Assembly (NCBI GenBank): GCA_964635485.1
Contig: CAZWPV010000001.1
Coordinates: 1-24,968, forward strand
Direction: 5' to 3'
DNA length: 24,968 nucleotides
Origin: an uncultured Anaerolineales bacterium
GTDB lineage: Bacteria; Chloroflexota; Anaerolineae; B4-G1
Part shown: one piece after another, positions 1,535-24,138 of the stretch
Position numbering within the stretch: the first letter of the stretch is position 1
Layout of the letters: each line of letters begins with the position of its first letter
Translations under genes and position numbers: made by a program
The notes under the pieces: model-generated
What the model saw: the letters and a program-made list of their open reading frames with translations, nothing else
Told to the model about the DNA's origin: nothing
Database searches by the model: none

Positions 1535-4054
1535 ATGGGTGACTACACGGAAAAGCAAAGGCATACACTCGTCTGGAGAATGGTCATAACCGGCATTGTT
1601 CTCGGCATATTCTACTGGGTCCTCGAATCCATCATGGACGCCGCCGTGTTCGAAAAGGGGAGCATTATCGAGCGGATATTTCCCTCCGACTCCCGCGAAA
1701 TCCTGTTGCGCGCGCTCGCCCTGGGCACCCTCCTCATCTTTGCCATCTATTCTCACGTCGCTGCGACCCTTCAGCGACGAGCGGAAAAAGACATTCAACA
1801 GCGCGCACAAGACCTGGCACTCATCAATTCACTCAATAGCGCCATCAACCGTGGCGATACATTGGACGAGATACTAAACCTGCTGTCCAAAGAGCTCAGA
1901 CAGGTTTTCGATAGCAATGACACGGCCGTTTACTTGGTCAGCGCAGACAAAGAACACCTGATGATGCAGGGACAATTCCTCAATCCGACGCTCACAAACC
2001 AAGTAGAGAAGCTCCTCGGTCAGAAAATACCACCGGTGAGAATCCACCTGGAACCCGGCAGTCTGTACCGCGAGATACTGGAGGGAAAACAACCGCGCAT
2101 TTTCAACGATCCCGAGGCTGTTCGGACGATGATGGCCGAGTGCACCGAGAACGAGACGTTCAAAATGCTCGTTCCCAAGATTTATGCTGCACTGGGCATC
2201 CGCTCGGTGATATCCATTCCACTGGTATCGGAAAACAGGGCCGTTGGCCTGATGGATCTCTCACGCAGCAGGCCGTTTACTGAGTCGGACCTAGAACGTA
2301 TCACCCTCCTCGCAGGCCAATTGACCGCCGCCATCGAGCATAGGCAGATCGTAGAGAAGCTGAGAGAGGAAAGAGACAAGACACGGATATATTTCGATAT
2401 GGCGGGCGTCATGTTCCTGGTCCTCGACACCGCTGGAACAGTCTCTCTCATCAATCAGAAAGGGTGCGAGATTCTCGGATACAAACAACAGGAGGAGGAG
2501 GTCATCGGTAAGAAGTGGGTGGACAACTTCCTGCCGGCGAGCGTGCGACAGGATGCGGAAGCTGTTTTCCAGGCATTGCTGGCCGGAGAAGTCGAGCGGG
2601 CCGAGTATTTTGAGAACTCGGTTTTGACCAAGAGCGGCGAGGAAAGGGTCATCGCCTGGCACAACACAACATTGAGAGACGAGGTAGGAAACATCAGCGG
2701 CATCCTTAGTTCAGGAAAGGATATCACCGACATAAAGCGCGCAGAAGAGATGCTGTGGCAACGGGCAGCTCAGTTGGCGCTCCTCAACGACGTCGGGGGC
2801 AAAATCGCCGCCGTGCTCGACCTGGACAGCCTGCTGGAAAGGGCCACCCAACTGGTCCAAGAGAGCTTTGGCTATCACCACGCGGCTATTTTTGCGATGG
2901 ACCGCGAGCGGCACGAGTTGGTGATGAGAACGAAGGCCGGCTCGTTTGCTCACCTCTACCCACCCAATCACCGGCTAAAACTGGGCCAAGGCATGGTCGG
3001 CTGGGTGGCCCTGCATGGCGAGACACTGTTGGCCAACGACGTGAACGCCGAACCCCACTACGTCAACCTCTACCCTGGCGTGTTGCCCGATGGCTCCGAG
3101 TTGAGCGTACCACTCCAGGGGGGTGAGGAGATCGTGGGCGTCCTCGACATCCAAAGCCCACAAAAAAACGCCTTTGACGATAACGACGTGATGGTGATGG
3201 AAACTCTGGCCGACCAGGTCGCCGTCGCGATTGAGAACGCGCGGCTGTACGAGAAGCTTCAGCGAGAGCTGGCCGAGCGCGTCCGAATCGAAGCGATTCG
3301 GGCGCGGGCAGAGAAGCGACTGGAACACTATGCCGCCGAACTGGAGCGAAGCAACCGAGAGCTGGAGCAATTCGCCTACATCACTTCACACGACCTGCAG
3401 GAGCCTCTGCGCATGGTGACGAGCTACCTGCAACTCCTGGAACGACGCTACAAAGGCGCGCTCGATGAAGACGCCGACGACTTTATCGCCTACGCCGTAG
3501 ATGGGGCAACCCGTATGCAAATGCTCATTCGCGACCTCCTAACCTATTCACGCGTGAGCACCCACGCCAAACCCTTCGAACCGACCAACTGCAACGACAT
3601 ACTGAACCATGCGCGCGCCAATCTGGAAATCGCCATTCACGAAAGCGCAGCAACAGTCACTTCCGACGATCTGCCGACGATAACAGCCGACGCTACGCAA
3701 CTGACCCAGGTATTCCAGAACCTGATCGGCAACGCCGTCAAATTCCGCAGGAAGGAAGAGCCACCGAGGGTGCACGTCACGGCCGAACGAAAAGAAGACG
3801 AGTGGCTCTTCTCAGTGCGCGACAACGGCATCGGCATCGCCCCTGAACACACAGAGCGCATCTTTTTGATCTTTCAGCGCCTCCACACCCGGGATGAGTA
3901 CCCGGGCACCGGCATTGGCCTCGCCGTATGCAAAAAGATCGTGGAGCGCCACGGCGGACGCCTGTGGGTGGAATCAGAACCTGGAAAAGGATCTACGCTC
4001 TACTTCACAATCCCGGCTATAAGCAAGATCGTTAGTACAGAGAAAAGCAAATGA
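1535..4054 (+). CDS. Membrane-anchored sensor histidine kinase: 2 TM - GAF - PAS - GAF - HisKA - HATPase (Cph1-like kinase core)
   Basis: Two N-terminal hydrophobic helices. PAS/PAC ending GKDITD. H-box SHDLQEPLRMV, N-box NLIGNAVKF, G1 DNGIG, G2 GTGIGLA. Confidence 0.93.
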   Translation: MGDYTEKQRHTLVWRMVITGIVLGIFYWVLESIMDAAVFEKGSIIERIFPSDSREILLRALALGTLLIFAIYSHVAATLQRRAEKDIQQRAQDLALINSLNSAINRGDTLDEILNLLSKELRQVFDSNDTAVYLVSADKEHLMMQGQFLNPTLTNQVEKLLGQKIPPVRIHLEPGSLYREILEGKQPRIFNDPEAVRTMMAECTENETFKMLVPKIYAALGIRSVISIPLVSENRAVGLMDLSRSRPFTESDLERITLLAGQLTAAIEHRQIVEKLREERDKTRIYFDMAGVMFLVLDTAGTVSLINQKGCEILGYKQQEEEVIGKKWVDNFLPASVRQDAEAVFQALLAGEVERAEYFENSVLTKSGEERVIAWHNTTLRDEVGNISGILSSGKDITDIKRAEEMLWQRAAQLALLNDVGGKIAAVLDLDSLLERATQLVQESFGYHHAAIFAMDRERHELVMRTKAGSFAHLYPPNHRLKLGQGMVGWVALHGETLLANDVNAEPHYVNLYPGVLPDGSELSVPLQGGEEIVGVLDIQSPQKNAFDDNDVMVMETLADQVAVAIENARLYEKLQRELAERVRIEAIRARAEKRLEHYAAELERSNRELEQFAYITSHDLQEPLRMVTSYLQLLERRYKGALDEDADDFIAYAVDGATRMQMLIRDLLTYSRVSTHAKPFEPTNCNDILNHARANLEIAIHESAATVTSDDLPTITADATQLTQVFQNLIGNAVKFRRKEEPPRVHVTAERKEDEWLFSVRDNGIGIAPEHTERIFLIFQRLHTRDEYPGTGIGLAVCKKIVERHGGRLWVESEPGKGSTLYFTIPAISKIVSTEKSK

Positions 4055-6951
4055 GTGTCACCCCCTTCAAAATCCTACTAATCGAAGACAATCCGGCAGA
4101 TGCTCGCCTGCTGCGGGAGATGCTGGTCGAAATAAAAGACGCTCCGTTCGAGCTGGAGTGGGTCGACCGGCTCTCGGCAGGATTAGAGCGTCTGACGAAG
4201 GGAGACGTCGACGCAATACTACTGGACCTCTCACTGCCGGACAGCCAGGGCCTCGACACGTTCTTGCAGGTGCAGGCCCAAGCTCCCCACGTGCCCATCA
4301 CCGTGTTGAGTGGCCTCGACGACGCAGCGCTGGCCCTTCAAGCTGTGCGCGAAGGCGCGCAGGACTATCTGGTCAAGGGAAAGATAGACGGCAATTTGCT
4401 GGTGCGCGCCATCAGGTATGCCATCGAACGCAAACGGATAGAAGAAGCATTGCGCGATAGCCTGCAGTTCAGTTCCAGCCTGCTGGGCAACTCTCCTCAC
4501 CCGATCCTCGTCATCAATCCCGACACCTCGATACGATATGCAAACCCCGCTCTGGAAAGGCTGACCGGGTTCTCCGCAGCCGAACTGATCGGCCGGAAAG
4601 CCCCCTACCCCTGGTGGCCGGAAGAAATATGGGAACAAGAAACCCGGCTGCTGAATGGGTTAATGCTCCAAGAAACACGTAGACTCGAGAGGTGCTTCCA
4701 GAGGAAGGACGGGAAACCACTCTGGGTTGAGATCAACGCGGTACCGATCGTAAGCAGCGGGGAATTCAAGTACCGCCTGTCCAACTGGATGGACATCACC
4801 GAGCGCAAGCAGGCCGAGGAAGAGATCCGCCGTCGCGCCGCTCATCTGGAGGCCCTCAATGCCGTAATTGCTGCCGCCGCTGGCGCGCCGGTCCTCACAG
4901 ACTTGTTGAAGGCTGCGCTGGAGCACACGCTGCAAGCCTTTGGTCTGGTGATGGGCGCCATCTGGCAATCAGGCCAGTACGTCATACAGGGCATTGAGCA
5001 GAAGGCCGGGCAAACCAATGCCCACGAAGCTCTGGCCGCTGGCCTTGCCATTGCCAAATCCGTCGTCGTGGAGGACTGGTGTAGGGTAACAGACGATGAT
5101 CCGCTGTCGGCCATCGCTCCCATCATGACCAGCTTTGGCATCCGCTCCTCCCTCGCCATACCCATCCAGGTCGAAGAGCGCCGGATCGGCGGGCTGGCCA
5201 TCGTCTCCCCTGATCCCCGCTCTTGGGCTGCCGATGAGGTTGCCCTGGTGGAAGCCATCGGCCAGCAACTGGGAGCAGCGACAGAAAGGCTACGCCTTTT
5301 CCAAGCCGAGCGGGAGCAACGGGAGTTGGCCGAGGCTCTGCAGGAAGCAGCCGCCGTCGTCGGCAGCACCCTGGAGGCCGACGAGGTACTCGACCGCATC
5401 CTGGAGCAGGTAGAGCGCGTCGTGCCGGGCGATGCCTTCAACATCATGCTGGTAACAGACGGTGGCAAGGCCCAGATCGTCCGCTGGCGAGGATACGAAC
5501 GCTTGCCAGCGAACGGCCCGGAAGCTAGAACTGAATATCTACTCGACGAGATCCCTAATCTGCAGAAAATGATGCAGACAGGGGAAGCGATCGTCGTCTC
5601 GGACACCTCCACGGACCCCGACTGGGTGGTATTGGGAGGCCAGAAATGGCATCGTGCCTACATCGGCGCCCCTATAAAACTGGGAGGCGTAACGGTAGGC
5701 TTTTTGAACGTGAATGACACTCAGGCAAGTCCGTTCGGCATCGATGCCGGTCGACGGCTGCAGGCCTTTGCCAACCATGCCGCTATCGCCATCGAGAACT
5801 CGCGATTGTACCAAGAGTTGCTCAGCCACGCCGAGGAATTGAAGAAGCGCGTGGAGGAGCGTACCGCCCAGATACAGGCCCAATATGCCCAGTTGGAAGC
5901 GATTCTGCGCAGTTCCTCCGACGGTATCGTCGTCACCGACAGCCAGGGGAAAACGATCCAAGCCAACCCCATCGCCAACGCTTGGCTCACTCAAACGCTC
6001 TCGCCCGATGATGCAGTGCAGCTAAGCGAGGCAATACAGGGTCTAGCTGCACGAGCCCCGGAGCGGCCAGAACGGGTGCTGGAACTGGCAGGGGTAGACC
6101 TTGAATTGCGCGCAGTGCCGGTCACAGAGGCCGAAGGGGAAGCGACTGCCTTGGTGACAATCCACGACATCAGCCACCTGAAAACTCTAGATCGAATGAA
6201 GTCGCAATTTGTCACCAACGTCTCCCACGAGCTACGGACCCCCATCACGACGATTAAGCTGTACGCGGCGTTGATGCAAAAGTCGCCACGAGACAAATGG
6301 GAAGAATACCTCAACCCACTAGCCCAAGAAGCTGACCGGCAAGCGCGGCTAGTAGAAGACATCCTGCAGATCTCGCGCATCGAAACCGGGCGGCTGGAGA
6401 TCAGCCCCCGCTCTGTTCCTCTAAATGAACTAACCGAGACTGTCTTTATCAACCATCAACCACTGGCACAGGAGAGGGAGATGACCATCGAGCACCGTCC
6501 GGCGGAGCCGGGACCAGAGGTATTGGTAGATCCCGACAGAATGACGCAGGCGTTGGCCAACCTGGTGACAAACGCGATCCAGTATACACCCAGGGGCGAG
6601 GGCATAGCCATCTCCACCGCAGAGAAAGAAGCAAAAGGTCGCACGTGGGGCACAGTAACGGTGGCCGATACGGGGATGGGCATCCCGGAAGAGGAACTGC
6701 CCCACATCTTTGAGCGGTTCTTCCGGGGGGAACGACCGCGGAGCTTGCAGATACCCGGGACGGGTCTGGGGCTGGCGATCGCAAAGGATATCGTAGAACT
6801 GCACGGAGGCCAGGTGACGGTGGAAAGTGAGATAGATATGGGTACCACCTTCACCATTTGGCTACCTCTTGCGCGTGACGTAGATCAACAGGAAGGCCCT
6901 GGTAGCCAACCGCCGTTTGGAGCGAGAAAATGGAGACACAGCACATCCTAG
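4051..6951 (+). CDS. Hybrid kinase: REC - PAS - GAF - GAF - PAS-like - HisKA - HATPase
   Basis: ATGA overlap with the upstream gene. REC motifs LLIEDN, LLDLSLPD and YLVKG. H-box SHELRTP, NLVTNAIQY, DTGMG, GTGLGLA. Confidence 0.93.
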   Translation: MSVTPFKILLIEDNPADARLLREMLVEIKDAPFELEWVDRLSAGLERLTKGDVDAILLDLSLPDSQGLDTFLQVQAQAPHVPITVLSGLDDAALALQAVREGAQDYLVKGKIDGNLLVRAIRYAIERKRIEEALRDSLQFSSSLLGNSPHPILVINPDTSIRYANPALERLTGFSAAELIGRKAPYPWWPEEIWEQETRLLNGLMLQETRRLERCFQRKDGKPLWVEINAVPIVSSGEFKYRLSNWMDITERKQAEEEIRRRAAHLEALNAVIAAAAGAPVLTDLLKAALEHTLQAFGLVMGAIWQSGQYVIQGIEQKAGQTNAHEALAAGLAIAKSVVVEDWCRVTDDDPLSAIAPIMTSFGIRSSLAIPIQVEERRIGGLAIVSPDPRSWAADEVALVEAIGQQLGAATERLRLFQAEREQRELAEALQEAAAVVGSTLEADEVLDRILEQVERVVPGDAFNIMLVTDGGKAQIVRWRGYERLPANGPEARTEYLLDEIPNLQKMMQTGEAIVVSDTSTDPDWVVLGGQKWHRAYIGAPIKLGGVTVGFLNVNDTQASPFGIDAGRRLQAFANHAAIAIENSRLYQELLSHAEELKKRVEERTAQIQAQYAQLEAILRSSSDGIVVTDSQGKTIQANPIANAWLTQTLSPDDAVQLSEAIQGLAARAPERPERVLELAGVDLELRAVPVTEAEGEATALVTIHDISHLKTLDRMKSQFVTNVSHELRTPITTIKLYAALMQKSPRDKWEEYLNPLAQEADRQARLVEDILQISRIETGRLEISPRSVPLNELTETVFINHQPLAQEREMTIEHRPAEPGPEVLVDPDRMTQALANLVTNAIQYTPRGEGIAISTAEKEAKGRTWGTVTVADTGMGIPEEELPHIFERFFRGERPRSLQIPGTGLGLAIAKDIVELHGGQVTVESEIDMGTTFTIWLPLARDVDQQEGPGSQPPFGARKWRHSTS

Positions 6952-8039
6952 TCGTCGAAGATCACGAGTCCCTCTTGGCAGCCATCCAACACGTCTTGGA
7001 GATCGAGGACTACTCCGTCCTGACTGCCATCGACGGCGTGGAGGCATTGGATATGATGGACAAAGTCCGCCCCGATCTGATCGTAGCGGACATCATGATG
7101 CCCCGAATGAATGGCTACGAATTCTACGAAGCCGTCCGCGCTCGTCCCGAATGGGTACCGATTCCCTTCATCTTCCTGACCGCCAGATCGGAGAAAGAGG
7201 ACATGCTGAAGGGAAAATCGCTGGGCGTCGAGGACTATATCGTCAAGCCATTTGACCCAGAGGAGCTAGTGATAGCTGTCCAGGCCCGGCTGAAACGCAC
7301 CCAGGCCATCCAAGAGGCCTCGGAAGCGGACTTTGAGCAACTCAAACAACAGATCGTCAATACACTGAGTCACGAACTGCGTACACCACTGACCTACATC
7401 CAAGGGTACACGGCGCTAGCGTTGGAGGACACTCACACCGCCAAATATCTCCAAGACTTCCTGCTGGCGATCAAAGGAGGTGCCGACCGGCTGACCCGGC
7501 TGGTCGAGGACATGCTGCTACTAGTCCAGTTGGACACAGGCCAAGCGATGAAGGACTTTGAGTCACTGGCCGACGTACAGCAGGATCTGAACGGAATAGT
7601 AAAACATACTGTCCAGCAATATGCAGAACAGGCATCCACCCAAGACATGACTCTGCAGGTCGAGACGACACCTAACCCACCACAGATACGGCTGTGCGAG
7701 CCCTTCTTCGTCAATGCACTGGGTCGCTTGGTAGACAATGCCATCAGATTCTCCCGAAACGATGGGAAACAAGTAACCGTGAGTATCCGCGCCAGTGATG
7801 AATGGGGAGAGATAATTGTGCAGGACGAAGGCATAGGCATCGCCACTGAACAAGTCCCCCATCTCTTCGAACGATTCCGACAGATCGACAGGGAAGAGAT
7901 GGAACAGCAAGGTGCGGGGCTAGGGCTGGCCATTGCCCAGGGACTGATCGCCCTGCACGGCGGCGAGATCACAGTCGATAGCAAACTCGGAGAAGGATCG
8001 ACCTTCACAATTCGGCTGCCAATAGTCAAAAGCGTCTAG
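6930..8039 (+). CDS. REC - HisKA - HATPase hybrid kinase
   Basis: REC motifs LVVEDH, ADIMMP and YIVKPF. SHELRTP, LVDNAIRF, DEGIG, GAGLGLA. Overlaps the upstream CDS by 22 nt. Confidence 0.93.
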   Translation: METQHILVVEDHESLLAAIQHVLEIEDYSVLTAIDGVEALDMMDKVRPDLIVADIMMPRMNGYEFYEAVRARPEWVPIPFIFLTARSEKEDMLKGKSLGVEDYIVKPFDPEELVIAVQARLKRTQAIQEASEADFEQLKQQIVNTLSHELRTPLTYIQGYTALALEDTHTAKYLQDFLLAIKGGADRLTRLVEDMLLLVQLDTGQAMKDFESLADVQQDLNGIVKHTVQQYAEQASTQDMTLQVETTPNPPQIRLCEPFFVNALGRLVDNAIRFSRNDGKQVTVSIRASDEWGEIIVQDEGIGIATEQVPHLFERFRQIDREEMEQQGAGLGLAIAQGLIALHGGEITVDSKLGEGSTFTIRLPIVKSV

Positions 8040-8094
8040 TACAAAAGCAAGAAACTGGCGACCTTGGCCGTCGAACATCCAAGGAGAGTCACTT

Positions 8095-8553
8095 ATGGGT
8101 GAAAGCATCATCGTTCGTCAAAACAGCCAGTTCGAGACCGAGATCAAGGCTCAAGATCCTCGCAATCCAGACGACCAAGACTTCTACTCCGTCGGCGACA
8201 TCCATCAACTGACACCGTACGGACTGCTACTGGCAGGGCTTGGCTCCTGCACGACCATCATCCTGCACACCTACGCCCAGTACCACGACGTGCCGTTGGC
8301 GGAGGTGGAAATACACCTGGAGTACGACCGCTTCTTTGCCGACGACTGCAAAAACTGCGAGGAAATCGAGGAATACAAGGAACAGATCGACATGGAGATC
8401 GCCCTGTTCGGAGGAGGCCTGATGCCAGAGGAGAAGCGCAGGTTGTTCATGGTCTCCAAGCACTGTCCGATTCACAAGATGCTCGCGCAGGGCATCACAG
8501 TCAAGTCGCAACTGATGGAAGGTACAGAGGAGGAACAGAATGCAGACACGTAA
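8095..8553 (+). CDS. OsmC/Ohr-family protein (YhfA-like) with an extra CxxC
   Basis: Conserved OsmC cysteine pair in LLAGLGSCT and KHCPIHKML, extra DDCKNCEE, AAGGAG RBS. Confidence 0.85.
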   Translation: MGESIIVRQNSQFETEIKAQDPRNPDDQDFYSVGDIHQLTPYGLLLAGLGSCTTIILHTYAQYHDVPLAEVEIHLEYDRFFADDCKNCEEIEEYKEQIDMEIALFGGGLMPEEKRRLFMVSKHCPIHKMLAQGITVKSQLMEGTEEEQNADT

Positions 8554-9505
8554 GCTCGGCTACAGCGATTTGCACCTGACGACCGTCGGCCTGGGCACCT
8601 GGGCCATCGGCGGGGAGTGGCAATGGGGCTGGGGACCGCAGGACGACGCCGAGTCCATCGCGGCCATCCAGCGCGCCCTCGATCTGGGCATCAACTGGAT
8701 CGACACTGCCCCGGCCTACGGCGTGGGGCACTCGGAGGAAATAGTCGGCAGGGCGATTGCTGGACGTCGAGAGCAAGTCATCATCGCCACCAAATGCAGC
8801 CTGGTGTGGGACGAGGGCAGCACCACGACCTACGCGCGGCTCAAGGCCGAGAGCGTCCGCCGCGAGGCAGAGGACAGCCTGCGCCGCCTCAACGTGGACG
8901 TCATCGACCTGTACCAGATCCACTGGCCAAGGCCCGACGAGGACGTCGAGGAGGCGTGGGGAGCCATCGCCGACATGATCGGGGAGGGCAAGATACGCTA
9001 CGCCGGGGCCTCCAATTTCAGCGTGGCCCAGCTCAAGCGCGTGCAGGCGATCCATCCGGTCGCCTCCCTGCAGCCGCCCTACAGCATGCTCCGGCGCGAC
9101 GTCGAGGAGTTGCTGCCTTACTGCACCGCCAACGATATCGGTGTGGTTGCCTACAGCCCGATGCAGGCCGGGCTGCTGACGGGCAAATTCAACAAGGAGC
9201 GCGTCGCCAGCCTGCCCGACGGGGATTGGCGCAAGCAGAACCCCTTCTTCCGTGAGCCGCAGATCAGCGCCAACCTGGCGTTGGTCGAAAAGCTGCGCCC
9301 CATCGCGGAGCGAAACGGCAGGCCGCTGGCGCAGTTGGCCATCGCCTGGGTGCTGCGGCGACCGGAGGTGACGGCGGCCATCGTCGGCGCGCGGCGCCCC
9401 TTCCAGATCGAGGAAACGGCCCCGGCGGGAGACTGGACCCTCTCGCAAGAGGACATCGCCGAGATCGACGCACTCCTGGAAGAACGCGATAAAGCACTAG
9501 CCTGA
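8540..9505 (+). CDS. Aldo/keto reductase
   Basis: GLGTWAIGG and the catalytic tetrad in IDTAPAYG (D,Y), IATKC (K) and YQIHWP (H). Also LQPPYSML and YSPMQAGLLTGK. Confidence 0.95.
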   Translation: MQTRKLGYSDLHLTTVGLGTWAIGGEWQWGWGPQDDAESIAAIQRALDLGINWIDTAPAYGVGHSEEIVGRAIAGRREQVIIATKCSLVWDEGSTTTYARLKAESVRREAEDSLRRLNVDVIDLYQIHWPRPDEDVEEAWGAIADMIGEGKIRYAGASNFSVAQLKRVQAIHPVASLQPPYSMLRRDVEELLPYCTANDIGVVAYSPMQAGLLTGKFNKERVASLPDGDWRKQNPFFREPQISANLALVEKLRPIAERNGRPLAQLAIAWVLRRPEVTAAIVGARRPFQIEETAPAGDWTLSQEDIAEIDALLEERDKALA

Positions 9506-9520
9506 GATTGGAGGTCGCCA

Positions 9521-10006
9521 ATGGCCGAGCGAGTCAGCGTTGGGCAAGCAGCCCCCGTCTTTGAGTTGACCGACGTGCAGGGAAACGCCGTCCGCCTCTC
9601 CGATTACCGAGGGGAGAGGCACGTGCTCCTGGTTTTCACGCGCGGTTTTATGTGACCCTACTGCCGTGCCCATCTCGCGCAGTTGCGTGAGGACTATGAC
9701 AAGTTCGTAGAGCGCGATGCAGAAATCCTCGTCATCGGCCCCGAGGGACCGCGCCGCTTCAAGCAGGTGTGGGAGGCAGAGCGCTATCCTTTCGTGGGCT
9801 TTGCCGATTACCGCCACACCGTCGCGGATCGCTACGGCCAGGAGGTCAAACTGCGAAAGCTGGGCCGCATGCCCGCGCTGCTGATCGTCGACAAGCGCGG
9901 CGTGATCCGCCTCGCTCACTTTGGCGACGACATGGCCGACATCCCGAAAAACAAGGACGTGCTGGCGCTGCTGGATCGGTTGAACCAAGAGGAGGTCGCA
10001 CAATGA
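9521..10006 (+). CDS. Peroxiredoxin-like (AhpC/TSA, redoxin) selenoprotein with a UxxC motif, 161 aa
   Basis: GGAGG RBS, then ATG at 9521 reading MAERVSVGQAAPVFELTDVQGNAVRLSDYRGERHVLLVFTRGFM-TGA(9653-9655)-PYCRAHLAQLRE..., in frame with the track ORF 9683-10006. The TGA sits at the first Cys of the redoxin CxxC, and a SECIS-like hairpin follows. Confidence 0.85.
9674..9691 (+). promoter_or_regulatory. Putative bacterial SECIS element
   Basis: 7-bp stem CUCGCGC/GCGUGAG (one G-U pair) with loop AGUU. The loop begins 25 nt after the UGA and has G at loop position 2, matching the general bacterial SECIS model. Confidence 0.65.
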
Positions 10007-10423
10007 GCAATCTGGCGGATATACAAACGCCTATCTTTTGGGCCGAGGGGCACCCCGGTCCTCTTTCGGCGCAGGGTTGGAAAGTCGAAGTCGGCGGGCT
10101 GGTCGAAAAGCCGGTCACGCTGACGTATCAGGAAATCCTCGATCTACCCAAGTCGGTCGCCGATGCCCGCTGACGTCGGTGTCGGGCTGGTCGGTGCGCG
10201 GCAACTGGGGCGGCGTGCGCCTCAGCGACCTGCTGCCCCTGGCCAACCCCAAGCCCGAGGCCAAACACGTCCAATTCATCTCCTACCGCAAGGCCTATAC
10301 CACCTGCATTCCACTCGAGGTTGCCTTGCAGGAGCGCACGCTGCTGGCCTACGAGTTCGACGGCGAGCCGCTGGAGTTCACCTATGGCGACCCCATCCGC
10401 ATCTTTTGCCCCTACCTGTGGGG
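10003..10423 (+). pseudogene. Molybdopterin-dependent oxidoreductase (sulfite-oxidase/MsrP-YuiH-like Moco domain), frameshifted and 3'-truncated
   Basis: ATGA overlap with the redoxin stop. WKVEVGGLVEKPVTLTYQEILDLP...ADAR in frame 1 continues as LTSVSGWSVRGNWGGVRLSDL...YTTCIPL...LLAYEFDGEPL..YGDPIRIFCPYLWG in frame 3 (one base missing at ~10170). Family-like sequence stops abruptly after YLWG. Confidence 0.8.
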
Positions 10424-10430
10424 GGCAGCG
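10412..10430. mobile_element. Probable att junction (left boundary of an integrated element)
   Basis: Host Moco-gene homology ends at TGG GGG (~10423). The recombinase frame crosses this point and stops at 10412-10414 inside the host gene. GC drops from 45/60 (line 10201) to 27/60 (line 10441). Confidence 0.6.
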
Positions 10431-10968
10431 CAATCCGCCATACTGAGACGTGTGCTCCCCGGCTCTTTACTCAGTATGAACGTGGGATAGATAACTTTTT
10501 CCCCATCCTCTACCACGAGATTTGCCCGCACGTCTAGCAACTCGACTATGCGACGTCGCTCTGCAAAATCCTCGTCGGCACTCCCCAATCCGGCCGATAG
10601 GCGCTCACCGAATGTGGCTACCTCACATATCTGATCATCCGGCAAGATATATTGCAAGCGCATCTCCATACCATCCCGTTCTACTTCCAGCTTGGCGATG
10701 GTGTCCTCCAGCCGTTTCTTACGCTCCAACAGCATATCCTTGTCAACGGCGCCGGACAGATATAGGTCAATCAGCCTTTCCAATTGTGCCTTGTGCCCCG
10801 GAGCAGGTTGTTAATCGTTTCGATTTGTGCCAGAACGGGGGCATTTGCCTTCTTGCGCTCCGTCCGATAGACCTCTAGTTTCTCAGCTAACTTCTTCGGG
10901 TCCTGTAGCCAGTCCTTCAGCCAGTCCCATACCAGCGCATCCACATGATCAGCGCGAAGTGAAGGCGC
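10412..10968 (-). pseudogene. C-terminal remnant of a large serine recombinase (coiled-coil/C-terminal region), with an internal frameshift near 10797
   Basis: APSLRADHVDALVWDWLKDWLQDPKKL...NNLL, a frame change, then GHKAQLERLIDLYLSGAVDKDMLLERKKRLEDTIAKLEVER...FAERRRIVELLDVRA.... This is the pattern of the region after the zinc ribbon in large serine recombinases. In-frame stop at 10999-11001 upstream, no start codon and no catalytic domain. Confidence 0.7.
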
Positions 10969-14395: not shown

Positions 14396-15682
14396 TCACA
14401 TTTCCACCTTCAAATCTGTGCCCTCAAACGTCTCCATCTCTTGCCCGGGTGCCCCCAGAGGGATGATCAGGGAGAAGATGCTCCCCTGACTCGGCCCTGG
14501 GCTCTCAACGCTCGTTCGCCCTCGATGCACCTCGGCCACGTAGCGCACGAAAGCCCACCCAACGCCTACTCCCTCCTGGCCGCGTCGAAGCGCATCGGCG
14601 CTCTGCTCAAACGGTTTGCCTAACCGGGCCAACTGCTCCTCGGTCAACCCCACACCGGTGTCCGAAACCTGGATGACGACAGTCTGCTCAGACACGAAAG
14701 CCTCCACCCAGGCCCTCCCGCCGGGCAGGTTGAACTTGACCGCGTTGTAAGCCATCTGAAACGCTGCCTCCCCAATCAGTACGGGATCAGCGTGCAACTT
14801 TGGCAGGTCAGGAGAGATGAGGACCCTGAAATCCACCTCTCTTGCCTGGGCCAGGATCGCCACCGGCTGCACCGCCCACGGAATCACTTGATCCAGCGTG
14901 ATGTATCCGGGCTGAGGATCGCGTCTTTTCCCAACCAACTCGGCGAACTTGACCACGCCGCTGACCAGTCTATGCAGGCCCGCAATCTGCGTCGTCAGGT
15001 CTTCCAAAGCATCCTTCAATTCGGCAGGAGATCCCGCACTCTGGCGCTGCAAGACCTCTAGCGCCAGGCCAATCGAGGCGAATGGAGTCAGCATCTCATG
15101 GGTCACCACGCCAAGGAATGCCGCTTTCAGGCGGTCCAGTTCCTCCAGTCGGCGACTCGCCTCTTCCAGTGCATGATGCTCTGCTTGCTCCCGTTGAAAC
15201 AGCTCTTTTAGATCGCGGGCATACACGATCAACTGATCGGCTGGCATCTTGGACAAATTGTCCGGCCGGTGATACTGTGGCTCGTCGCCGGCCAACGTCT
15301 CTCTGACCATGTCGATGAGTTGGACGGGGCTGAAGGGTTTGACCACGTATGCATCGGCTCCTGCCGCCAATCCCAGAGCCCGGTCGTCTTTGCCACCTTT
15401 TGCCGTGAGGAGGATCACCGGGATGGACGAGGTCTCGGGATCGGTCTTTAACGTCGCACATACCTCAACGCCTGACCGACCGGGCAGCATCACGTCGAGA
15501 AGAACCAGGGCAGGGTGCAAGGCCTGGGCGAATGCCAGTGCCTCATCGCCGTCGTGAGCCACGACCGTGTGCAGGCCTTCCAGATCCAGCGTCGCCGCGA
15601 TGGCTTTGGCCAACAGTTTTTCATCTTCGACAATCAAGACTTGACGTCTCGATTCTTCCTGCTGTGACTGATACTCGGTCAT
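14396..15682 (-). CDS. REC - coiled coil - HisKA - HATPase hybrid kinase with divergent boxes
   Basis: Start moved from the track's 15847 (which overlaps the upstream CDS) to the ATG at 15682 (MTEYQSQ...). REC motifs VEDE, LLDVMLP and YVVKPF. THEMLTP, AYNAVKF, DTGVG, GVGVGWA. Confidence 0.88.
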   Translation of the reverse strand: MTEYQSQQEESRRQVLIVEDEKLLAKAIAATLDLEGLHTVVAHDGDEALAFAQALHPALVLLDVMLPGRSGVEVCATLKTDPETSSIPVILLTAKGGKDDRALGLAAGADAYVVKPFSPVQLIDMVRETLAGDEPQYHRPDNLSKMPADQLIVYARDLKELFQREQAEHHALEEASRRLEELDRLKAAFLGVVTHEMLTPFASIGLALEVLQRQSAGSPAELKDALEDLTTQIAGLHRLVSGVVKFAELVGKRRDPQPGYITLDQVIPWAVQPVAILAQAREVDFRVLISPDLPKLHADPVLIGEAAFQMAYNAVKFNLPGGRAWVEAFVSEQTVVIQVSDTGVGLTEEQLARLGKPFEQSADALRRGQEGVGVGWAFVRYVAEVHRGRTSVESPGPSQGSIFSLIIPLGAPGQEMETFEGTDLKVEM

Positions 15683-15705
15683 CACTCTCACATTTACAGC
15701 ATGGG

Positions 15706-18186
15706 CTAGCGTGAAGCGGGTGCGGCCGGTAACGTGAAGGAGAACACACTTCCTGGCCCCACCGCGCTCTCCACAGCCACCTGGCCACCCAGTCTTTCCA
15801 CGATGCGACGCGCGATCGAGAGCCCCAACCCGTGTCCTTTGACGCAAGCCTGATCGAGCCGCGTAAAGGGAGTAAATAGCCGGGCCTGCTCTTCCGGCGA
15901 GATGCCAGGCCCGTTATCGCGCACCCAAAAGCGTACCAGGCCGTGTGGCTGTGTCTCTGCGCCTAACTCTACCCGCGGTGGCTGCCCTCCATACTTGATG
16001 GCGTTGCTCACGTAATTGACCCACACCTCTTCGACCCACTGCTCGTAGCCCACTGCCACCGGCCAGTCGCCGGGTACGATAACCTCAGCCTGAGATTCGT
16101 CGATCAAACCGGCTAACCGCTTTCGGGTTTCTGCCACAATACTATCCATGTCTAGCGGCTCGACCCGTACCTCTTCCATCTTGCGCACGCTGGATAGCAG
16201 GAGCAGCGCGTTGATGATCTTGGTCATCTTGTCGCCGCTCTGAACGATCGCCTGGAGGCAATCTAGAAGCTGCTCGGTCGTAAACGCTGTATAATCCTGC
16301 ACCAGCAACTCGGCAAAGCCCGTCACGTTGCCCAGCGGCCCTTTGAGATCGTGGGCCACGGTGTGGGCGAAAGCGTCCAGTTCTTCATTGCGCGCCTCCA
16401 ACTCGGCGGCGTACTGGCGCGACGATTCCTCAGCCAGCTTGCGCTCGGTGATGTCTCTAACGATTCCGATCACGTGCCATTTACCTCTCAGCATCACAGT
16501 TGAGAGAGACACCTCTACCGGAAACTCGGTCCCATCCCGTTTCATTGCCGTCAACTCGATCATCCCGCCGACTGCAGGCTCTTGGTCTGCTGTTGTGGGT
16601 CTCTCAAAAGCTCGTCGATAAGCTTCGTGGTGACGCTGAGGGGCGAGAAGCACGTGTACTTCTCTGCCTACGGCGTCCTGATTCAAATAGCCAAATATCC
16701 TTTCCGCCGCTTCATTCCAGAAAGACACTCTGCCTTCGTCGTTTGCCATGATGATGGCATCCTGGGCTGAGGCGCTCATCGTCCTGAACCGTTCTTCGCT
16801 CTCACGTGTCTCCCGGTACAATCGCGCTCTTTCCAGGGAAATGGCGATCTGGTTGGCAAAGGCAGTCACAGCTGGCGCATCGTCTTTGGTAAGGCCGGTC
16901 CCATTAACGACCAGTATCCCCTCGGTTTGGCCACCGATGACCAAGGGGGCATAGATGCCTTGCTTCGCCTCCAAGTCGCCGTCAGACTGCCCGGCCAAAG
17001 GGCGGATGAGACCAGGCATATCTTCGGATAGACGCTCGGCCATGCTCTCAACAAACACGGCCTGTTGGCTCCTGATCAGGCAGTCGTGAAACCCACCGGG
17101 CTTGACCGCTACGTGGAAGACACCGGATTCCATGGTCTCCTGAAAATCGGCCACAGAAGTCCCGGCCAGTTCCTCTGCCGCTCGCAGGAGAGGGGATTTG
17201 GCCGTCACGTACGATAGAGCCATGTGCGTTCTATCTTCTGTCAAAGTGAAAACCAGGGCGTGGTAATCCAGTCGAACTACCTCATCCAAGACCGTGCAGT
17301 ATATTTCCTCCGGCGTGCGGGCGCGCTGTACGGCCTCGGATGCGTCGCTGAGAGCCAGTAACAAACGGTGGCTGCGCGCCGTCGCTTCCTGGGAGTGTTG
17401 CAGCGCCTCCTCCACCCGCTTGCGCTCGGCGATCTTGCCCAGTCGCTCGGCGATGGCGTCGAGCAGATTCCTTTCCTCCTTCGAAAAAGGGCCTTCGTCG
17501 CTCGCCGGCTTTTCCTCCAGGTAGCACACTTCCACGACGCCGCCTGGTTTGCCATGCACGATGATGTTGCTGGCCTGTCTCCAGGAGGTCTCGGCAAAGT
17601 TCGGTGTCTGGAACTCTTGCTCCCCAAGGATGATCCGCGCGCACGCGACCTTTGAGTATCGCCAGGCAGGAGAGATAAGCAGGACGCTCTGCCAAAGAAT
17701 CTCCTCTAGTGAAATGCCCAGCCTTTGGATCAGGTTGGAGATGTTGTACAGGCAGTGCAGCTCCTTGAGCCGCTGGCCAAGCTCGGCCGTTTGCTCCTGC
17801 AACATCTCTCCCGCCCACCGCTTGTCAAAGGCCCCTCGGATGAGCATCATCAGTTGCTCCGGGTCGTAGGGCTTTTGCACGTATCCATAAGCGCCCAGGT
17901 TGAGCGCTTCAATGGCCGACTTTTGCGAGGCGTAGCCGGTCAAGACGATGCATTCGGTAGACCAGGCTTGCTCCTTCACCGCCTGTATCAGATCCATACC
18001 CGATCCTTCCTCCAGCCTGAGGTCGATCAGGGCTACTACGGGGGCATCCTCGGCGATCCTGTGCAGCGCCTCTTGCACCGTGCTGGCGACCGTAGTCGTA
18101 TAGCCGCGCTCGCTGAGCGTTCTGACGATAGCACCCCGAAGACCGGGATCGTCATCTACGATCAATATGCTGTTTCTTGTGGTCAT
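15706..18186 (-). CDS. Hybrid kinase: REC - GAF-like - GAF - PAS - HisKA - HATPase
   Basis: REC motifs IVDDD, LIDLRL and YVQKPY. PAS/PAC ending GIVRDITERK. AHDLKGP, NYVSNAIKY, DNGPG, GHGLGLS. GAGGTG RBS. Confidence 0.92.
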   Translation of the reverse strand: MTTRNSILIVDDDPGLRGAIVRTLSERGYTTTVASTVQEALHRIAEDAPVVALIDLRLEEGSGMDLIQAVKEQAWSTECIVLTGYASQKSAIEALNLGAYGYVQKPYDPEQLMMLIRGAFDKRWAGEMLQEQTAELGQRLKELHCLYNISNLIQRLGISLEEILWQSVLLISPAWRYSKVACARIILGEQEFQTPNFAETSWRQASNIIVHGKPGGVVEVCYLEEKPASDEGPFSKEERNLLDAIAERLGKIAERKRVEEALQHSQEATARSHRLLLALSDASEAVQRARTPEEIYCTVLDEVVRLDYHALVFTLTEDRTHMALSYVTAKSPLLRAAEELAGTSVADFQETMESGVFHVAVKPGGFHDCLIRSQQAVFVESMAERLSEDMPGLIRPLAGQSDGDLEAKQGIYAPLVIGGQTEGILVVNGTGLTKDDAPAVTAFANQIAISLERARLYRETRESEERFRTMSASAQDAIIMANDEGRVSFWNEAAERIFGYLNQDAVGREVHVLLAPQRHHEAYRRAFERPTTADQEPAVGGMIELTAMKRDGTEFPVEVSLSTVMLRGKWHVIGIVRDITERKLAEESSRQYAAELEARNEELDAFAHTVAHDLKGPLGNVTGFAELLVQDYTAFTTEQLLDCLQAIVQSGDKMTKIINALLLLSSVRKMEEVRVEPLDMDSIVAETRKRLAGLIDESQAEVIVPGDWPVAVGYEQWVEEVWVNYVSNAIKYGGQPPRVELGAETQPHGLVRFWVRDNGPGISPEEQARLFTPFTRLDQACVKGHGLGLSIARRIVERLGGQVAVESAVGPGSVFSFTLPAAPASR

Positions 18187-18216
18187 CGTTCACCTCGCTC
18201 AATCCTGAGCGTAGCC

Positions 18217-19332
18217 TCACACCTCGGCCGGCGGCAGCCTGATTGTGAAGGTGCTTCCTTTCCCAATGGCGCTCGCTACCGTAATCTCGCCGCCGTGTAG
18301 GTGGATCACCCCTTGGGCGATGGCCAGCCCGAGCCCTACCCCTTGCTGTTCCATCTTCTCCCTGGCGACCTGTCGGAACCGCTCAAAGAGATGGGGGATT
18401 TCGCCGGGCAGGATTCCAGGACCCTCGTCAATCACGGCGATCTCTGATTGATTCTGTACCTGCTGGGCGCTCACCGTAACTCGTTTTCCCTCCCCCTGGG
18501 AGAATTTGATGGCGTTGTCGATCAGCCTGCCCAGTGCGTCGGCAAAGAGCGGCTCGCACAGTTGCACCGGCGGTAGGTTGGGTTCTACCAGATATTCCAG
18601 CGTCATGCCCTTGGCCGCCGCTTGCGGTTCGTACTGGCTGATCGTGCGCGTCACGATCACGTCCAGATCGCTACGCACCTCTACCAGCTGCCGAAACTCC
18701 TTTTCCGCTTGGCCGGTATCCAGCCGAACTAACGTCAAAAAGTCGTCCGCCAGGCGGGTCAGTCGATCCGCTCCCTGGCTGATACTCTGGAGGAACTCCT
18801 CGAGAAGCTCAGGAGGCAAAGAAGGAATGTCTTCCAGCGCCAGTTCGGTGTACCCACGGATATAGGTCAGCGGCGTGCGCATCTCGTGCCCCAACACGGT
18901 GACGATTTGCTGCTTAATCTCATCGAGCCTCGCCTCGGCGTTTTCCTGGACGGCCTGCGCGCGCGCCAGCCGGGCACGCACCGTCACCAGCAGTTCCTCT
19001 GGATCGACGGGCTTGACCAGGTAGTCCTCCACGCCCAGTGCTTTTCCCTTGATCACATCCTCGCGCCGTGCCCTAGCGGTCAGAAAGATAAAGGGAATCG
19101 ACGTCCACTCGGCGTGGGCGCGCACTGCACGGTAGAAATCATACCCATCCATGCCGGGCATCATAATGTCTGCCAAGATGATATCGGGAGCCTTTCCCTC
19201 CATCACTTGCAGTGCTTGCACGCCGTCGTTGGCGGTCGAGACCGCGTATCCATCCGCTTCCAAGAAGCGCTGGATGGCCACCCGCAGGGAGGGCTGATCC
19301 TCCACGACTAACACGTGCCCAATACTGTCCAC
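18217..19332 (-). CDS. REC - HisKA - HATPase hybrid kinase, paralogue of 6930-8039
   Basis: Likely GTG start at 19332 (VDSIGHVLVVED) after AGAAGGTGG. ADIMMP, YLVKPV, GHEMRTP, LIDNAIKF, DEGPG, GVGLGLA. Confidence 0.9.
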   Translation of the reverse strand: MDSIGHVLVVEDQPSLRVAIQRFLEADGYAVSTANDGVQALQVMEGKAPDIILADIMMPGMDGYDFYRAVRAHAEWTSIPFIFLTARARREDVIKGKALGVEDYLVKPVDPEELLVTVRARLARAQAVQENAEARLDEIKQQIVTVLGHEMRTPLTYIRGYTELALEDIPSLPPELLEEFLQSISQGADRLTRLADDFLTLVRLDTGQAEKEFRQLVEVRSDLDVIVTRTISQYEPQAAAKGMTLEYLVEPNLPPVQLCEPLFADALGRLIDNAIKFSQGEGKRVTVSAQQVQNQSEIAVIDEGPGILPGEIPHLFERFRQVAREKMEQQGVGLGLAIAQGVIHLHGGEITVASAIGKGSTFTIRLPPAEV

Positions 19333-19353
19333 TATCCACCTTCTTCGCACACG

Positions 19354-23706: not shown

Positions 23707-23750
23707 GCCATGCCTCCGTATGAAAAAAAAGCATCGACATCCCTCGAAAG

Positions 23751-24137: not shown

Positions 24138-24138
24138 G

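What the first reader, a model, noticed from the sequence alone, without database searches (positions are those of the whole stretch)
9521..10006. Hidden selenoprotein: peroxiredoxin-like redoxin with UGA at the catalytic site and a SECIS-like hairpin
Seen: the track only reports 9683-10006, but a complete redoxin N-terminus starts at ATG 9521 with a GGAGG RBS and is interrupted by one in-frame TGA (9653-9655), giving RGFM-U-PYC. A 7-bp hairpin with an AGUU loop starts its loop 25 nt downstream. Established: UxxC thioredoxin-fold/AhpC-TSA-like selenoproteins exist, and bacterial SECIS elements lie just 3' of the UGA with a G near the start of the apical loop. Inference: the UGA is decoded as selenocysteine. 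Standard gene callers would truncate or split this gene.
Basis: partly seen in the sequence, partly recalled or inferred. Interest (0 to 1): 0.78.

Follow-up and report, generated by a model that had tools for sequence, protein, structure and literature searches.

The report
Hidden Prx-like selenoprotein gene with SECIS
This is a real but ordinary selenoprotein gene: a small peroxiredoxin-fold redox protein whose in-frame TGA almost certainly encodes selenocysteine, belonging to a family known since 2005-2008, which gene callers routinely cut short.

Summary
A 161-codon gene (9521-10006) has a GGAGG ribosome-binding site and one in-frame TGA (9653-9655). A hairpin follows, with its AGUU loop starting 25 nt after the TGA.

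Evidence that the TGA is a selenocysteine codon:
- One AhpC/TSA domain spans it.
- 17 other related loci examined also have TGA at this column; 11 non-redundant main-clade genes (window included), from Anaerolineae/Chloroflexota MAGs and metagenomes, are 69-94% identical in DNA.
- One of those loci is a 99.8%-identical contig from a separate assembly.
- More distant full-length homologues carry Cys there (RGFxCPFC).
- The 40 codons analysed upstream of the TGA evolve like coding sequence.
- TGA is the normal stop of 8 of 14 window genes.
- The hairpin meets all four published bacterial SECIS criteria and is the strongest cold spot of synonymous change in the gene (P about 9e-5).

Refinements:
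- Sec aligns with the Thr of the peroxiredoxin PxxxTxxC motif, not the peroxidatic Cys. The protein is a thioredoxin-type UxxC redoxin on a peroxiredoxin scaffold.
- Cys-form homologues also show a hairpin here, so the hairpin alone does not discriminate.
- selA, selB, selD and tRNA-Sec could not be checked in this genome.

Verdict: new member of the known "Prx-like thiol:disulfide oxidoreductase" (PF00578, UxxC) selenoprotein family.

The parts
9510..9514 (+). Shine-Dalgarno-like GGAGG, 6 nt upstream of the start codon
   Evidence: Read directly from the sequence.
9521..10006 (+). Full selenoprotein coding sequence: 161 codons, Sec at codon 45, terminal TGA at 10004-10006. Prx-fold UxxC redoxin.
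   Evidence: The translation has one internal TGA. The PF00578 AhpC-TSA match (93.4 bits) covers residues 7-130 across the TGA. Orthologues are collinear and ungapped over 141 codons.
9653..9655 (+). In-frame UGA, predicted selenocysteine codon (U45)
   Evidence: TGA occupies this column in the window and 17 other loci. Full-length Cys-form homologues have TGT/TGC. Independent contig L007 agrees.
9653..9664 (+). U-P-Y-C redox motif (U45-x-x-C48)
   Evidence: In the alignment to M. tuberculosis AhpE, U45 matches Thr and C48 matches the peroxidatic Cys of PxxxTxxC. In the model of Cys-form homologue P0010, C45 sits at the N-cap of helix 46-57 after strand 34-39.
9673..9692 (+). bSECIS-type hairpin: 8-bp stem (9673-9680 with 9685-9692, outer pair U.G) and apical loop AGUU (9681-9684), 25 nt after the UGA
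   Evidence: Fold energies are -11.1 to -11.6 kcal/mol. It meets all four bSECIS criteria quoted. 98.9% of cells are paired, with one compensatory swap and two wobble/Watson-Crick switches. It is the gene-wide minimum of synonymous diversity, hypergeometric P = 8.8e-5.
8095..8553 (+). OsmC-like gene, conserved upstream partner in the same operon-like cluster
   Evidence: Pfam OsmC match. Both conserved Cys are present. It lies upstream of the redoxin in L001 and L004-L012 and L014.
8540..9505 (+). Aldo/keto reductase gene between OsmC and the redoxin. Overlaps the OsmC stop and ends 15 nt before the redoxin ATG.
   Evidence: Pfam Aldo_ket_red, 290.9 bits. It has the same position in L001, L002, L004, L005, L007 and L010.
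10003..10423 (+). Downstream molybdopterin-binding oxidoreductase gene. Its start overlaps the redoxin stop as ATGA. In this window it is a frameshifted and 3'-truncated pseudogene.
   Evidence: Pfam Oxidored_molyb match in a shifted frame. Comparison with intact copies in L004, L005 and L008 shows a 1-nt deletion near 10168-10171, and homology ends at about 10423.

Best explanation
Window 9521-10006 is one gene for a 161-residue selenoprotein. It has a peroxiredoxin (BCP/AhpE-like) fold and a thioredoxin-type U45-P-Y-C48 redox motif.

Recoding (inferred). Translation starts at ATG 9521. At UGA 9653-9655 the ribosome is recoded. The hairpin at 9673-9692 (8 bp, loop AGUU), inside the coding sequence 25 nt downstream, acts as a bacterial SECIS. 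It recruits SelB-GTP-Sec-tRNA(Sec), so selenocysteine is inserted instead of termination. Translation then continues to the genuine stop at 10004-10006.

Chemistry (inferred). U45 sits at the N-terminus of the first helix and is the exposed nucleophile. It cycles with C48 through a selenenylsulfide. The protein therefore acts as a thiol/selenol:disulfide oxidoreductase, and possibly also as a peroxide reductase. It most likely works in an oxidative-stress module with the co-transcribed OsmC-like hydroperoxidase and aldo/keto reductase.

Shown here: the conserved TGA, the Cys/TGA alternation, translation of the upstream part, the conservation and geometry of the hairpin, the fold, and the gene linkage.

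Inferred only: actual Sec insertion, SelB binding, the chemistry, and the physiological partner.
For: 1. One PF00578 domain spans the TGA.
2. Among the top 120 database hits, all 109 with at least 61% identity are called as 88-123-aa C-terminal fragments. Of the 11 full-length hits (46-59% identity), the nine read have Cys at the column, P0011 is a TGA form, and P0023 and P0026 were seen only as protein.
3. DNA from 17 other loci has TGA at this exact column. The 11 non-redundant main-clade genes (window included) are 69-94% identical in nucleotides.
4. L007, a 99.8%-identical contig from another assembly, also has TGA.
5. Upstream of the TGA, variable sites at codon positions 1/2/3 number 21/16/37 of 40. 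Downstream they number 36/25/85 of 100. The same pattern on both sides means the N-terminal part is translated.
6. TGA terminates 8 of 14 window genes, and no other gene has an internal TGA, so the code is not reassigned.
7. The hairpin meets the bSECIS model: loop 3-9 nt, stem 4-16 bp, G within the first two loop bases followed by U, 16-37 nt spacing, and energy of -7.5 kcal/mol or lower.
8. Of 74 degenerate columns with an invariant amino acid, 10 show no synonymous change. Five of those 10 lie in the six hairpin codons (P = 8.8e-5). The lowest 6-codon window of synonymous diversity starts exactly at the hairpin (0.085 against a median of 0.476). The fixed codons are non-preferred: CTC 21%, GCG 26%, TTG 17%.
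9. The only substitutions in the stem preserve pairing: G-C/G-U, U.G to C-G, and a C-G to G-C double change in distant L025 that costs two amino-acid changes.
10. PF00578 + UxxC is a described selenoprotein family.
11. Cultured Anaerolineae/Caldilineae have SelD, SelA, SelB and 3-4 selenoproteins. Dehalococcoidia MAGs have 46-49.
12. Fold and motif position are supported.
Against: - No selA, selB, selD or tRNA-Sec lies in the window or in the fetched flanks. The organism's Sec competence is inferred, not shown.
- Cys-form homologues form a comparable hairpin at the same place, because A-Q-L-R in GC-rich codons is nearly palindromic. Part of the structure may therefore be a by-product of coding, or a fossil.
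- True covariation is thin: one compensatory pair in one sequence, and 45 of 500 shuffles reach the observed score.
- The 60-nt fold z-score is only -1.0.
- No Rfam family matches.
- One distant TGA-form locus (L021) has a degraded hairpin.
- There is no protein-level or 75Se evidence.
Confidence: 0.88

Rival explanations
1. The TGA is a nonsense mutation, pseudogene lesion or sequencing/assembly error in an ordinary Cys-type redoxin.
For: TGC to TGA is a single-base change. The gene immediately downstream in this window is a genuine frameshifted and truncated pseudogene, so local decay does occur. L021 is a singleton TGA form without a good hairpin and may be such a case.
Against: TGA occupies the same column in 17 other loci from many assemblies, at 69-94% nucleotide identity in the main clade. 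Both flanks show coding-type substitution patterns. Independent contig L007 has the same base. About 109 database clusters are truncated at the same place.
Confidence: 0.01
2. The UGA is bypassed or used without selenocysteine. Possible routes are near-cognate read-through (Trp, Cys or Arg), genuine termination giving a 44-residue peptide plus a separately initiated 107-residue product from TTG 9683, or clade-specific TGA reassignment.
For: Sec machinery was not found in the sequence available. JGI translated the L021 homologue with Trp at this codon.
Against: - TGA is the regular stop of 8 of 14 genes in the window and interrupts no other gene.
- The two pieces are halves of a single Trx-fold domain, and neither would fold alone.
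- TTG 9683 is the conserved loop codon of the hairpin.
- The column is the redox-active Cys of a CxxC motif in homologues, which is the classical Sec/Cys signature.
- The conserved hairpin has SECIS geometry.
Confidence: 0.05
3. The UGA does encode Sec, but the 9673-9692 hairpin is not the functional SECIS. On this view it is a by-product of the palindromic GCG-CAG-YTG-CGY coding of Ala-Gln-Leu-Arg, and the SelB-binding element lies elsewhere or is unconventional.
For: Cys-form homologues with the same peptide also fold into a hairpin of -7 to -13 kcal/mol at this spot. Covariation support is weak.
Against: - In the 11 non-redundant Sec forms, synonymous sites are frozen on non-preferred codons, exactly and only over the hairpin.
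- The loop Leu codon is TTG (giving the G-U loop dinucleotide) in all 11 main-clade Sec forms and in distant L025. It is TTG in 1 of 6 distinct Cys forms.
- L025 keeps pairing through two non-synonymous changes.
- No better candidate hairpin is conserved in the 16-37-nt range.
Confidence: 0.06

Closest known systems
Prx-like thiol:disulfide oxidoreductase selenoproteins (pfam00578, UxxC/UxxU; representative WP_010940744.1 of Geobacter sulfurreducens; 'Prx-like 1' of the GOS selenoproteome)
   Same: Both have a PF00578 AhpC/TSA domain, Sec as the first residue of a UxxC motif, Cys-containing homologues, and an intragenic bacterial SECIS just downstream. Both were predicted by the same comparative logic.
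   Different: This clade comes from Anaerolineae/Chloroflexota MAGs and metagenomes, not the Deltaproteobacteria or marine plankton where the family was defined. The linkage to OsmC, an aldo/keto reductase and a molybdopterin oxidoreductase did not turn up in the passages I read (targeted term searches, not full texts).
Canonical peroxiredoxins of the BCP/PrxQ and AhpE types (e.g. M. tuberculosis AhpE Rv2238c, PDB 1XVW/4X0X; Sulfolobus Bcp1, 3DRN), and the Prx selenoproteins with a TxxU motif
   Same: Same fold: sequence E = 1.6e-10 to AhpE, and TM 0.84-0.88 for the model of Cys-form homologue P0010. Cys48 aligns with the peroxidatic Cys.
   Different: The PxxxTxxC signature is replaced by RGFM-U-PY-C: Pro becomes Arg and Thr becomes Sec. 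In Prx selenoproteins, Sec replaces the peroxidatic Cys (TxxU). Here Sec lies three residues earlier, giving a thioredoxin-like UxxC.
SelL / 'SelL-related redox protein' (NCBIfam NF040769)
   Same: It is the best-scoring NCBIfam model for this protein (73.7 bits). It is also a Prx-like fold with a redox motif at the same position. SelL is described as a Prx-like selenoprotein.
   Different: The score is below the curated cutoff of 120 bits, so this is not a member by NCBI's criterion. SelL proper has UxxU (my own knowledge of Shchedrina et al. 2007, not checked here); this protein has UxxC.
Bacterial SECIS consensus (bSECISearch model; prototype E. coli fdhF SECIS)
   Same: It is a stem-loop inside the coding sequence immediately 3' of the UGA. 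It has a 4-nt apical loop with G followed by U in the first positions, an 8-bp upper stem, 25-nt spacing and -11 kcal/mol. All values fall within the published ranges.
   Different: There is no sequence similarity to fdhF-type elements and no Rfam family. There is no bulged U (the fdhF feature is recalled from my own knowledge). SelB binding is untested.

Membership tests
Bacterial selenoprotein gene (Sec-UGA recoding) | In-frame UGA conserved among orthologues, with coding-type conservation on both sides | tested here: met
   TGA occupies the same column in 17 other loci. Codon-position bias is 21/16/37 upstream and 36/25/85 downstream.
Bacterial selenoprotein gene (Sec-UGA recoding) | Homologues carry Cys at the aligned position | tested here: met
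   Nine full-length homologues read (P0010, P0016, P0023, P0025, P0026, P0073, P0091, P0102, P0106, P0110 minus none with another residue) have Cys there in the protein alignments; the six whose DNA was fetched carry TGT/TGC, in the motif RGFxCPFC.
Bacterial selenoprotein gene (Sec-UGA recoding) | bSECIS stem-loop: loop 3-9 nt, stem 4-16 bp, G in the first two loop positions, 16-37 nt from the UGA, energy of -7.5 kcal/mol or lower | tested here: met
   Loop AGUU (4 nt), stem 8 bp, spacing 25 nt, -11.1 to -11.6 kcal/mol. The criteria are quoted from PMC13188914. Conservation and constraint are shown.
Bacterial selenoprotein gene (Sec-UGA recoding) | selA, selB, selD and tRNA-Sec present in the same genome | not testable with these tools
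   None is present in the 25-kb window or in the fetched flanks, and the rest of the genome is not available. Class-level support only: Anaerolinea thermophila and Caldilinea aerophila are SelD+ SelA+ SelB+.
Bacterial selenoprotein gene (Sec-UGA recoding) | Selenium physically incorporated at the UGA position (75Se labelling or mass spectrometry) | not testable with these tools
   This is an experimental test.
Prx-like thiol:disulfide oxidoreductase selenoprotein family (pfam00578, UxxC/UxxU) | pfam00578 (AhpC-TSA) domain | tested here: met
   93.4 bits against a cutoff of 26, covering residues 7-130.
Prx-like thiol:disulfide oxidoreductase selenoprotein family (pfam00578, UxxC/UxxU) | Sec in a UxxC (or UxxU) motif. 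The family is defined by domain plus motif (PMC9312934). | tested here: met
   U45-P-Y-C48. The definition is quoted.
Prx-like thiol:disulfide oxidoreductase selenoprotein family (pfam00578, UxxC/UxxU) | Demonstrable sequence relationship to the reference member WP_010940744.1 | not tested
   The reference sequence could not be fetched by accession with these tools.
Canonical peroxiredoxin (including Prx selenoproteins, TxxU) | PxxxTxxC (or PxxxTxxU) active-site signature with Sec/Cys at the peroxidatic position | tested here: not met
   The alignment to AhpE pairs FFPLAFTGIC with FTRGFMUPYC. Pro becomes Arg and Thr becomes Sec, and the peroxidatic position holds Cys48 rather than Sec.
Canonical peroxiredoxin (including Prx selenoproteins, TxxU) | Prx/Trx fold | tested here: met
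   The model of Cys-form homologue P0010 (58% identical; pLDDT 90.4) matches Bcp1, AhpE and BCP structures with TM 0.84-0.88.
Canonical peroxiredoxin (including Prx selenoproteins, TxxU) | Conserved active-site Arg | tested here: inconclusive
   The invariant LGR(116)MPA lies one alignment column from the AhpE Arg in the phmmer alignment. The register is uncertain.
SelL-related redox protein (NCBIfam NF040769) | Score at or above the curated cutoff (120 bits) | tested here: not met
   73.7 bits, and only profile positions 2-80 of 173 are matched in the best stretch.

The most novel reading that the evidence does not exclude
The Anaerolineae clade defined here is a distinct, Chloroflexota-specific subfamily of Prx-fold selenoredoxins, in which Sec replaces the Thr of the peroxiredoxin motif. 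On this reading it has been recruited as the dedicated selenol-based reductant of the co-transcribed OsmC-type hydroperoxidase. The OsmC-(aldo/keto reductase)-selenoredoxin cluster would then be a previously undescribed selenium-dependent peroxide or electrophile detoxification module.
Probability: 0.15. Interest if true: 0.45.

Novelty: new member of a known kind. Interest (0 to 1): 0.3.

Why it matters
Practically, it is an annotation fix. At least 109 protein clusters in public databases, including NCBI and JGI entries named 'peroxiredoxin' or 'redoxin domain-containing protein', appear to be C-terminal stumps of this selenoprotein that lack the active site. Functional and selenium-utilisation surveys of Anaerolineae therefore undercount it.

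Biologically, it adds a widespread Anaerolineae lineage to the users of Prx-like UxxC selenoproteins. It also gives a clean example of an intragenic SECIS whose RNA constraint is visible as frozen synonymous sites. The conserved linkage to OsmC gives a testable hint about the still-unknown function of this family.

It does not open a new category or change current understanding of Sec decoding.

Tried and rejected
- Rfam scans, both at gathering thresholds on the whole window and permissively on 9600-9760, found no SECIS or other relevant family. The weak snoRNA-type hits on the minus strand are chance.
- ARAGORN found no tRNA-Sec in the window or in 12 related loci.
- Pfam on all large window ORFs found no SelA, SelB or SelD. 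The window is dominated by hybrid histidine kinases.
- I expected the hairpin to be absent from Cys-form homologues. It is not, so I dropped 'hairpin present versus absent' as an argument and used synonymous-site constraint and loop identity instead.
- The whole-segment folding z-score is uninformative.
- Classical covariation statistics are weak because the element is almost invariant.
A 58%-identical Cys-form homologue was modelled instead.
- Genome-wide TGA reassignment was considered and rejected.
- The antisense ORF 9497-10003 (168 aa) was considered. I treat it as a GC-rich shadow ORF, because the Pfam domain and codon-position pattern are on the + strand.
- The promoter/terminator scan of 7900-10600 found nothing, which is compatible with one operon but is not evidence for it.

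Full report
**1. Checking the observation**

- ATG lies at 9521-9523, preceded by GGAGG at 9510-9514.
- The frame stays open for 161 codons to TGA 10004-10006.
- There is a single internal TGA at 9653-9655, in the context RGFM-*-PYC.
- The mechanical ORF list contains only the 107-codon stump 9683-10006, starting at a TTG.

Folding the 60 nt from the TGA gives the hairpin CUCGCGC-AGUU-GCGUGAG (9674-9691). A U.G pair (9673/9692) extends it to 8 bp. The loop starts 25 nt after the UGA.

With Cys substituted for the stop, a single Pfam AhpC-TSA domain covers residues 7-130, straight across the TGA (93.4 bits against a cutoff of 26). The Redoxin family also matches at 69 bits.

**2. Is the TGA real and conserved?**

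A search of 5.8 billion proteins returned 253 homologues. Among the best 120:
- All 109 hits with at least 61% identity are called as 88-123-aa proteins covering only the C-terminal two-thirds or less.
- All 11 full-length hits (155-168 aa) have at most 59% identity.

In the protein alignments, the full-length hits read carry Cys at the column, in the motif RGFxCPFC; the exception is P0011, which is a TGA form.

I fetched DNA for relatives from GTDB genomes, JGI metagenomes and by exact-protein lookup. Seventeen other loci have TGA at exactly this column: L001-L015, L021 and L025. Six distinct Cys-form loci have TGT or TGC.

The organisms named are Anaerolineae, Anaerolineales and Chloroflexota MAGs.

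L007 is a 2.7-kb contig from a different metagenome assembly. It matches window 7718-10293 with one difference, a synonymous CGT/CGC at 9667, and it has the same TGA. That removes base-call or assembly error as an explanation.

After removing near-duplicates, 11 main-clade genes remain at 69-94% nucleotide identity.
- Upstream of the TGA, variable sites fall 21/16/37 on codon positions 1/2/3 (40 codons).
- Downstream they fall 36/25/85 (100 codons).

The same third-position excess on both sides means the N-terminal part is translated.

TGA is the ordinary stop of 8 of the 14 window genes, and no other gene has an internal TGA. The genetic code is therefore not reassigned.

**3. The hairpin**

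A 2026 review quotes the bacterial SECIS model (PMC13188914):
- apical loop of 3-9 nt and upper stem of 4-16 bp;
- G within the first two loop positions, mostly followed by G or U;
- 16-37 nt between the UGA and the loop;
- energy of -7.5 kcal/mol or lower.

The window element has a 4-nt loop AGUU, an 8-bp stem, 25-nt spacing and about -11 kcal/mol. It passes all four.

This model is permissive. Of 697 TGA triplets in the window, 5% pass it, and 0.9% (6, including the target) have a hairpin as stable as this one.

There is also a complication. Cys-form homologues fold into a hairpin at the same place, because Ala-Gln-Leu-Arg written as GCG-CAG-CTG-CGC is palindromic. Hairpin presence is therefore not diagnostic.

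Three other features are informative.
- **Synonymous constraint.** Among the 11 non-redundant TGA forms there are 74 degenerate columns with an invariant amino acid. Only 10 show no synonymous change, and 5 of those lie in the six hairpin codons (hypergeometric P = 8.8e-5).
  - The lowest 6-codon window of synonymous diversity in the gene starts exactly at the first hairpin codon (0.085 against a median of 0.476).
  - The frozen codons are non-preferred in this genome: CTC 21%, GCG 26%, TTG 17%.
  - Codons just before the hairpin (Pro, Tyr, Arg, Ala) and just after it (Asp/Glu at +13 and +15) vary freely.
- **Pairing is preserved.** The only changes within the stem keep it paired: G-C/G-U at CGY, U.G to C-G in L010, and a C-G to G-C double change in the distant L025 that required Leu-to-Met and Glu-to-Gln replacements. 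Overall 98.9% of cells are paired.
- **Loop identity.** The loop Leu codon is TTG in every main-clade TGA form and in L025, which gives the G-U dinucleotide typical of bSECIS loops. It is CTG or TTA in five of six distinct Cys forms.

Formal covariation is weak because the element barely varies: 45 of 500 shuffles reach the observed score. No Rfam family matches.

**4. What the protein is**

The closest solved structure by sequence is the 1-Cys peroxiredoxin AhpE of M. tuberculosis (E = 1.6e-10). The alignment places VLLVFTRGFM-U-PYC over VLLVFFPLAF-T-GIC.
- Sec45 corresponds to the Thr of the peroxiredoxin PxxxTxxC signature.
- Cys48 corresponds to the peroxidatic Cys.
- The signature Pro is replaced by Arg.

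An AlphaFold model of the 58%-identical Cys-form homologue P0010 is confident (pLDDT 90.4, pTM 0.88). The first motif Cys sits at the N-cap of helix 46-57, after strand 34-39. Its best structural neighbours are BCP, Bcp1 and AhpE peroxiredoxins, with TM 0.84-0.88.

The protein therefore has a peroxiredoxin scaffold carrying a thioredoxin-type UxxC motif. This is exactly how the literature defines the 'Prx-like thiol:disulfide oxidoreductase' selenoprotein family (pfam00578, UxxC/UxxU), as distinct from Prx selenoproteins (TxxU).

That family was reported in Geobacter, Syntrophus and Desulfotalea in 2006. As 'Prx-like 1' it has 225 members in the GOS data.

The best NCBIfam model is 'SelL-related redox protein', but at 73.7 bits it is below the 120-bit cutoff.

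**5. Genomic context**

The genes are tightly packed on the + strand:
- OsmC-like gene, 8095-8553, with both conserved Cys present;
- aldo/keto reductase, 8540-9505;
- the selenoredoxin, 9521-10006;
- a molybdopterin-binding oxidoreductase starting at 10003.

No promoter-like or terminator-like site lies between them.

OsmC lies upstream of the redoxin in most main-clade loci, either directly or with the reductase in between. Downstream there is either the molybdopterin oxidoreductase or a rubrerythrin-like gene. This suggests an oxidative-stress role, but it is only inference.

**6. Sec machinery**

The window and the fetched flanks contain no tRNA-Sec, selA, selB or selD.

At class level, Peng et al. 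2016 (Table S1/S2) list Anaerolinea thermophila UNI-1 and Caldilinea aerophila as SelD+, SelA+ and SelB+, with 4 and 3 selenoproteins. BSepDB lists Dehalococcoidia MAGs with 46-49 selenoproteins. Sec decoding is therefore established in Chloroflexota.

**7. Verdict**

Three refinements apply:
- the active-site position of Sec;
- the non-diagnostic nature of the hairpin taken alone;
- the untested Sec machinery.

It is a new member, in fact a large mis-annotated Anaerolineae clade, of a selenoprotein family known for about twenty years. Interest is modest. The main value is correcting annotation, plus the OsmC linkage as a functional lead.

Noticed in passing
window 10003-10423 (+): The molybdopterin-binding oxidoreductase gene downstream of the redoxin is a pseudogene in this strain. 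A 1-nt deletion near 10168-10171 (GCCCGC-TGACG here, GCCCGCCTGACG expected) shifts the frame. Homology to intact copies (about 199 aa in L004, L005, L008) stops after '...IFCPYLWG' at about 10423. The independent contig L007 has the same frameshift, so it is real.
   Followed up: yes
window 10412-10944 (-): Directly after the breakpoint, the minus strand carries broken ORFs. One of them (10412-10783) weakly matches the C-terminal part of a phage-type integrase (phrog_95, positions 470-567 of 651, E = 4.8e-4). This is probably a mobile-element scar that truncated the molybdopterin gene. Contig L007 ends exactly at window 10423.
   Followed up: partly
window 10294-10416 versus L007: The window and L007 differ at 1 base in 2,576 (7718-10293), and then at 17 bases in the next 123. 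This sharp change in divergence suggests a strain-level recombination boundary inside the pseudogene.
   Followed up: no
L021 518-1003 (protein P0011): JGI's protein record has Trp at the Sec column, but the DNA has TGA. The gene was evidently called under a TGA=Trp code. The neighbouring genes on this contig have no in-frame TGA, and the hairpin downstream is degraded (GCG to GCC breaks the stem). This may be an independent nonsense mutation in a Cys-type lineage, or a divergent SECIS.
   Followed up: partly
L017-L020, L022-L024 (Cys-form homologues), 18-42 nt after the Cys codon: Cys-form genes keep a hairpin of -7 to -13 kcal/mol at the SECIS position, with loops AGCU, GCCU or GCUU. This is either a fossil SECIS left after Sec-to-Cys conversion or a by-product of palindromic GCG-CAG-CTG-CGC coding. 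There is precedent for fossil SECIS elements in PMC1794560.
   Followed up: partly
window 1535-8039 (+) and 14396-24221 (-): The window is unusually rich in two-component signalling. There are seven histidine kinases, six of them with a receiver domain and four with PAS/GAF domains (369-1466 aa), plus a stand-alone receiver (23751-24221). They flank the redox operon on both sides. A homologous kinase precedes OsmC in L001, L006, L008, L010 and L014.
   Followed up: no
L008 2107-2703; L004 2399-2995; window 10174-10200: In the molybdopterin oxidoreductase, the motif reads LTSVSGWS. From memory, the sulfite-oxidase/YedY family has the Mo-ligand Cys at about this position (xCVxGWS). The Ser here could mean an unusual or inactive Mo site. 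This was not checked against an alignment.
   Followed up: no
L025 9851-10336: In the most distant confirmed TGA form (61% aa identity, GCA_034433475.1), the gene caller split the gene into a 43-aa and a 111-aa ORF. The neighbours there differ: a short-chain dehydrogenase lies downstream and a xanthine-dehydrogenase-like Mo enzyme lies upstream.
   Followed up: no
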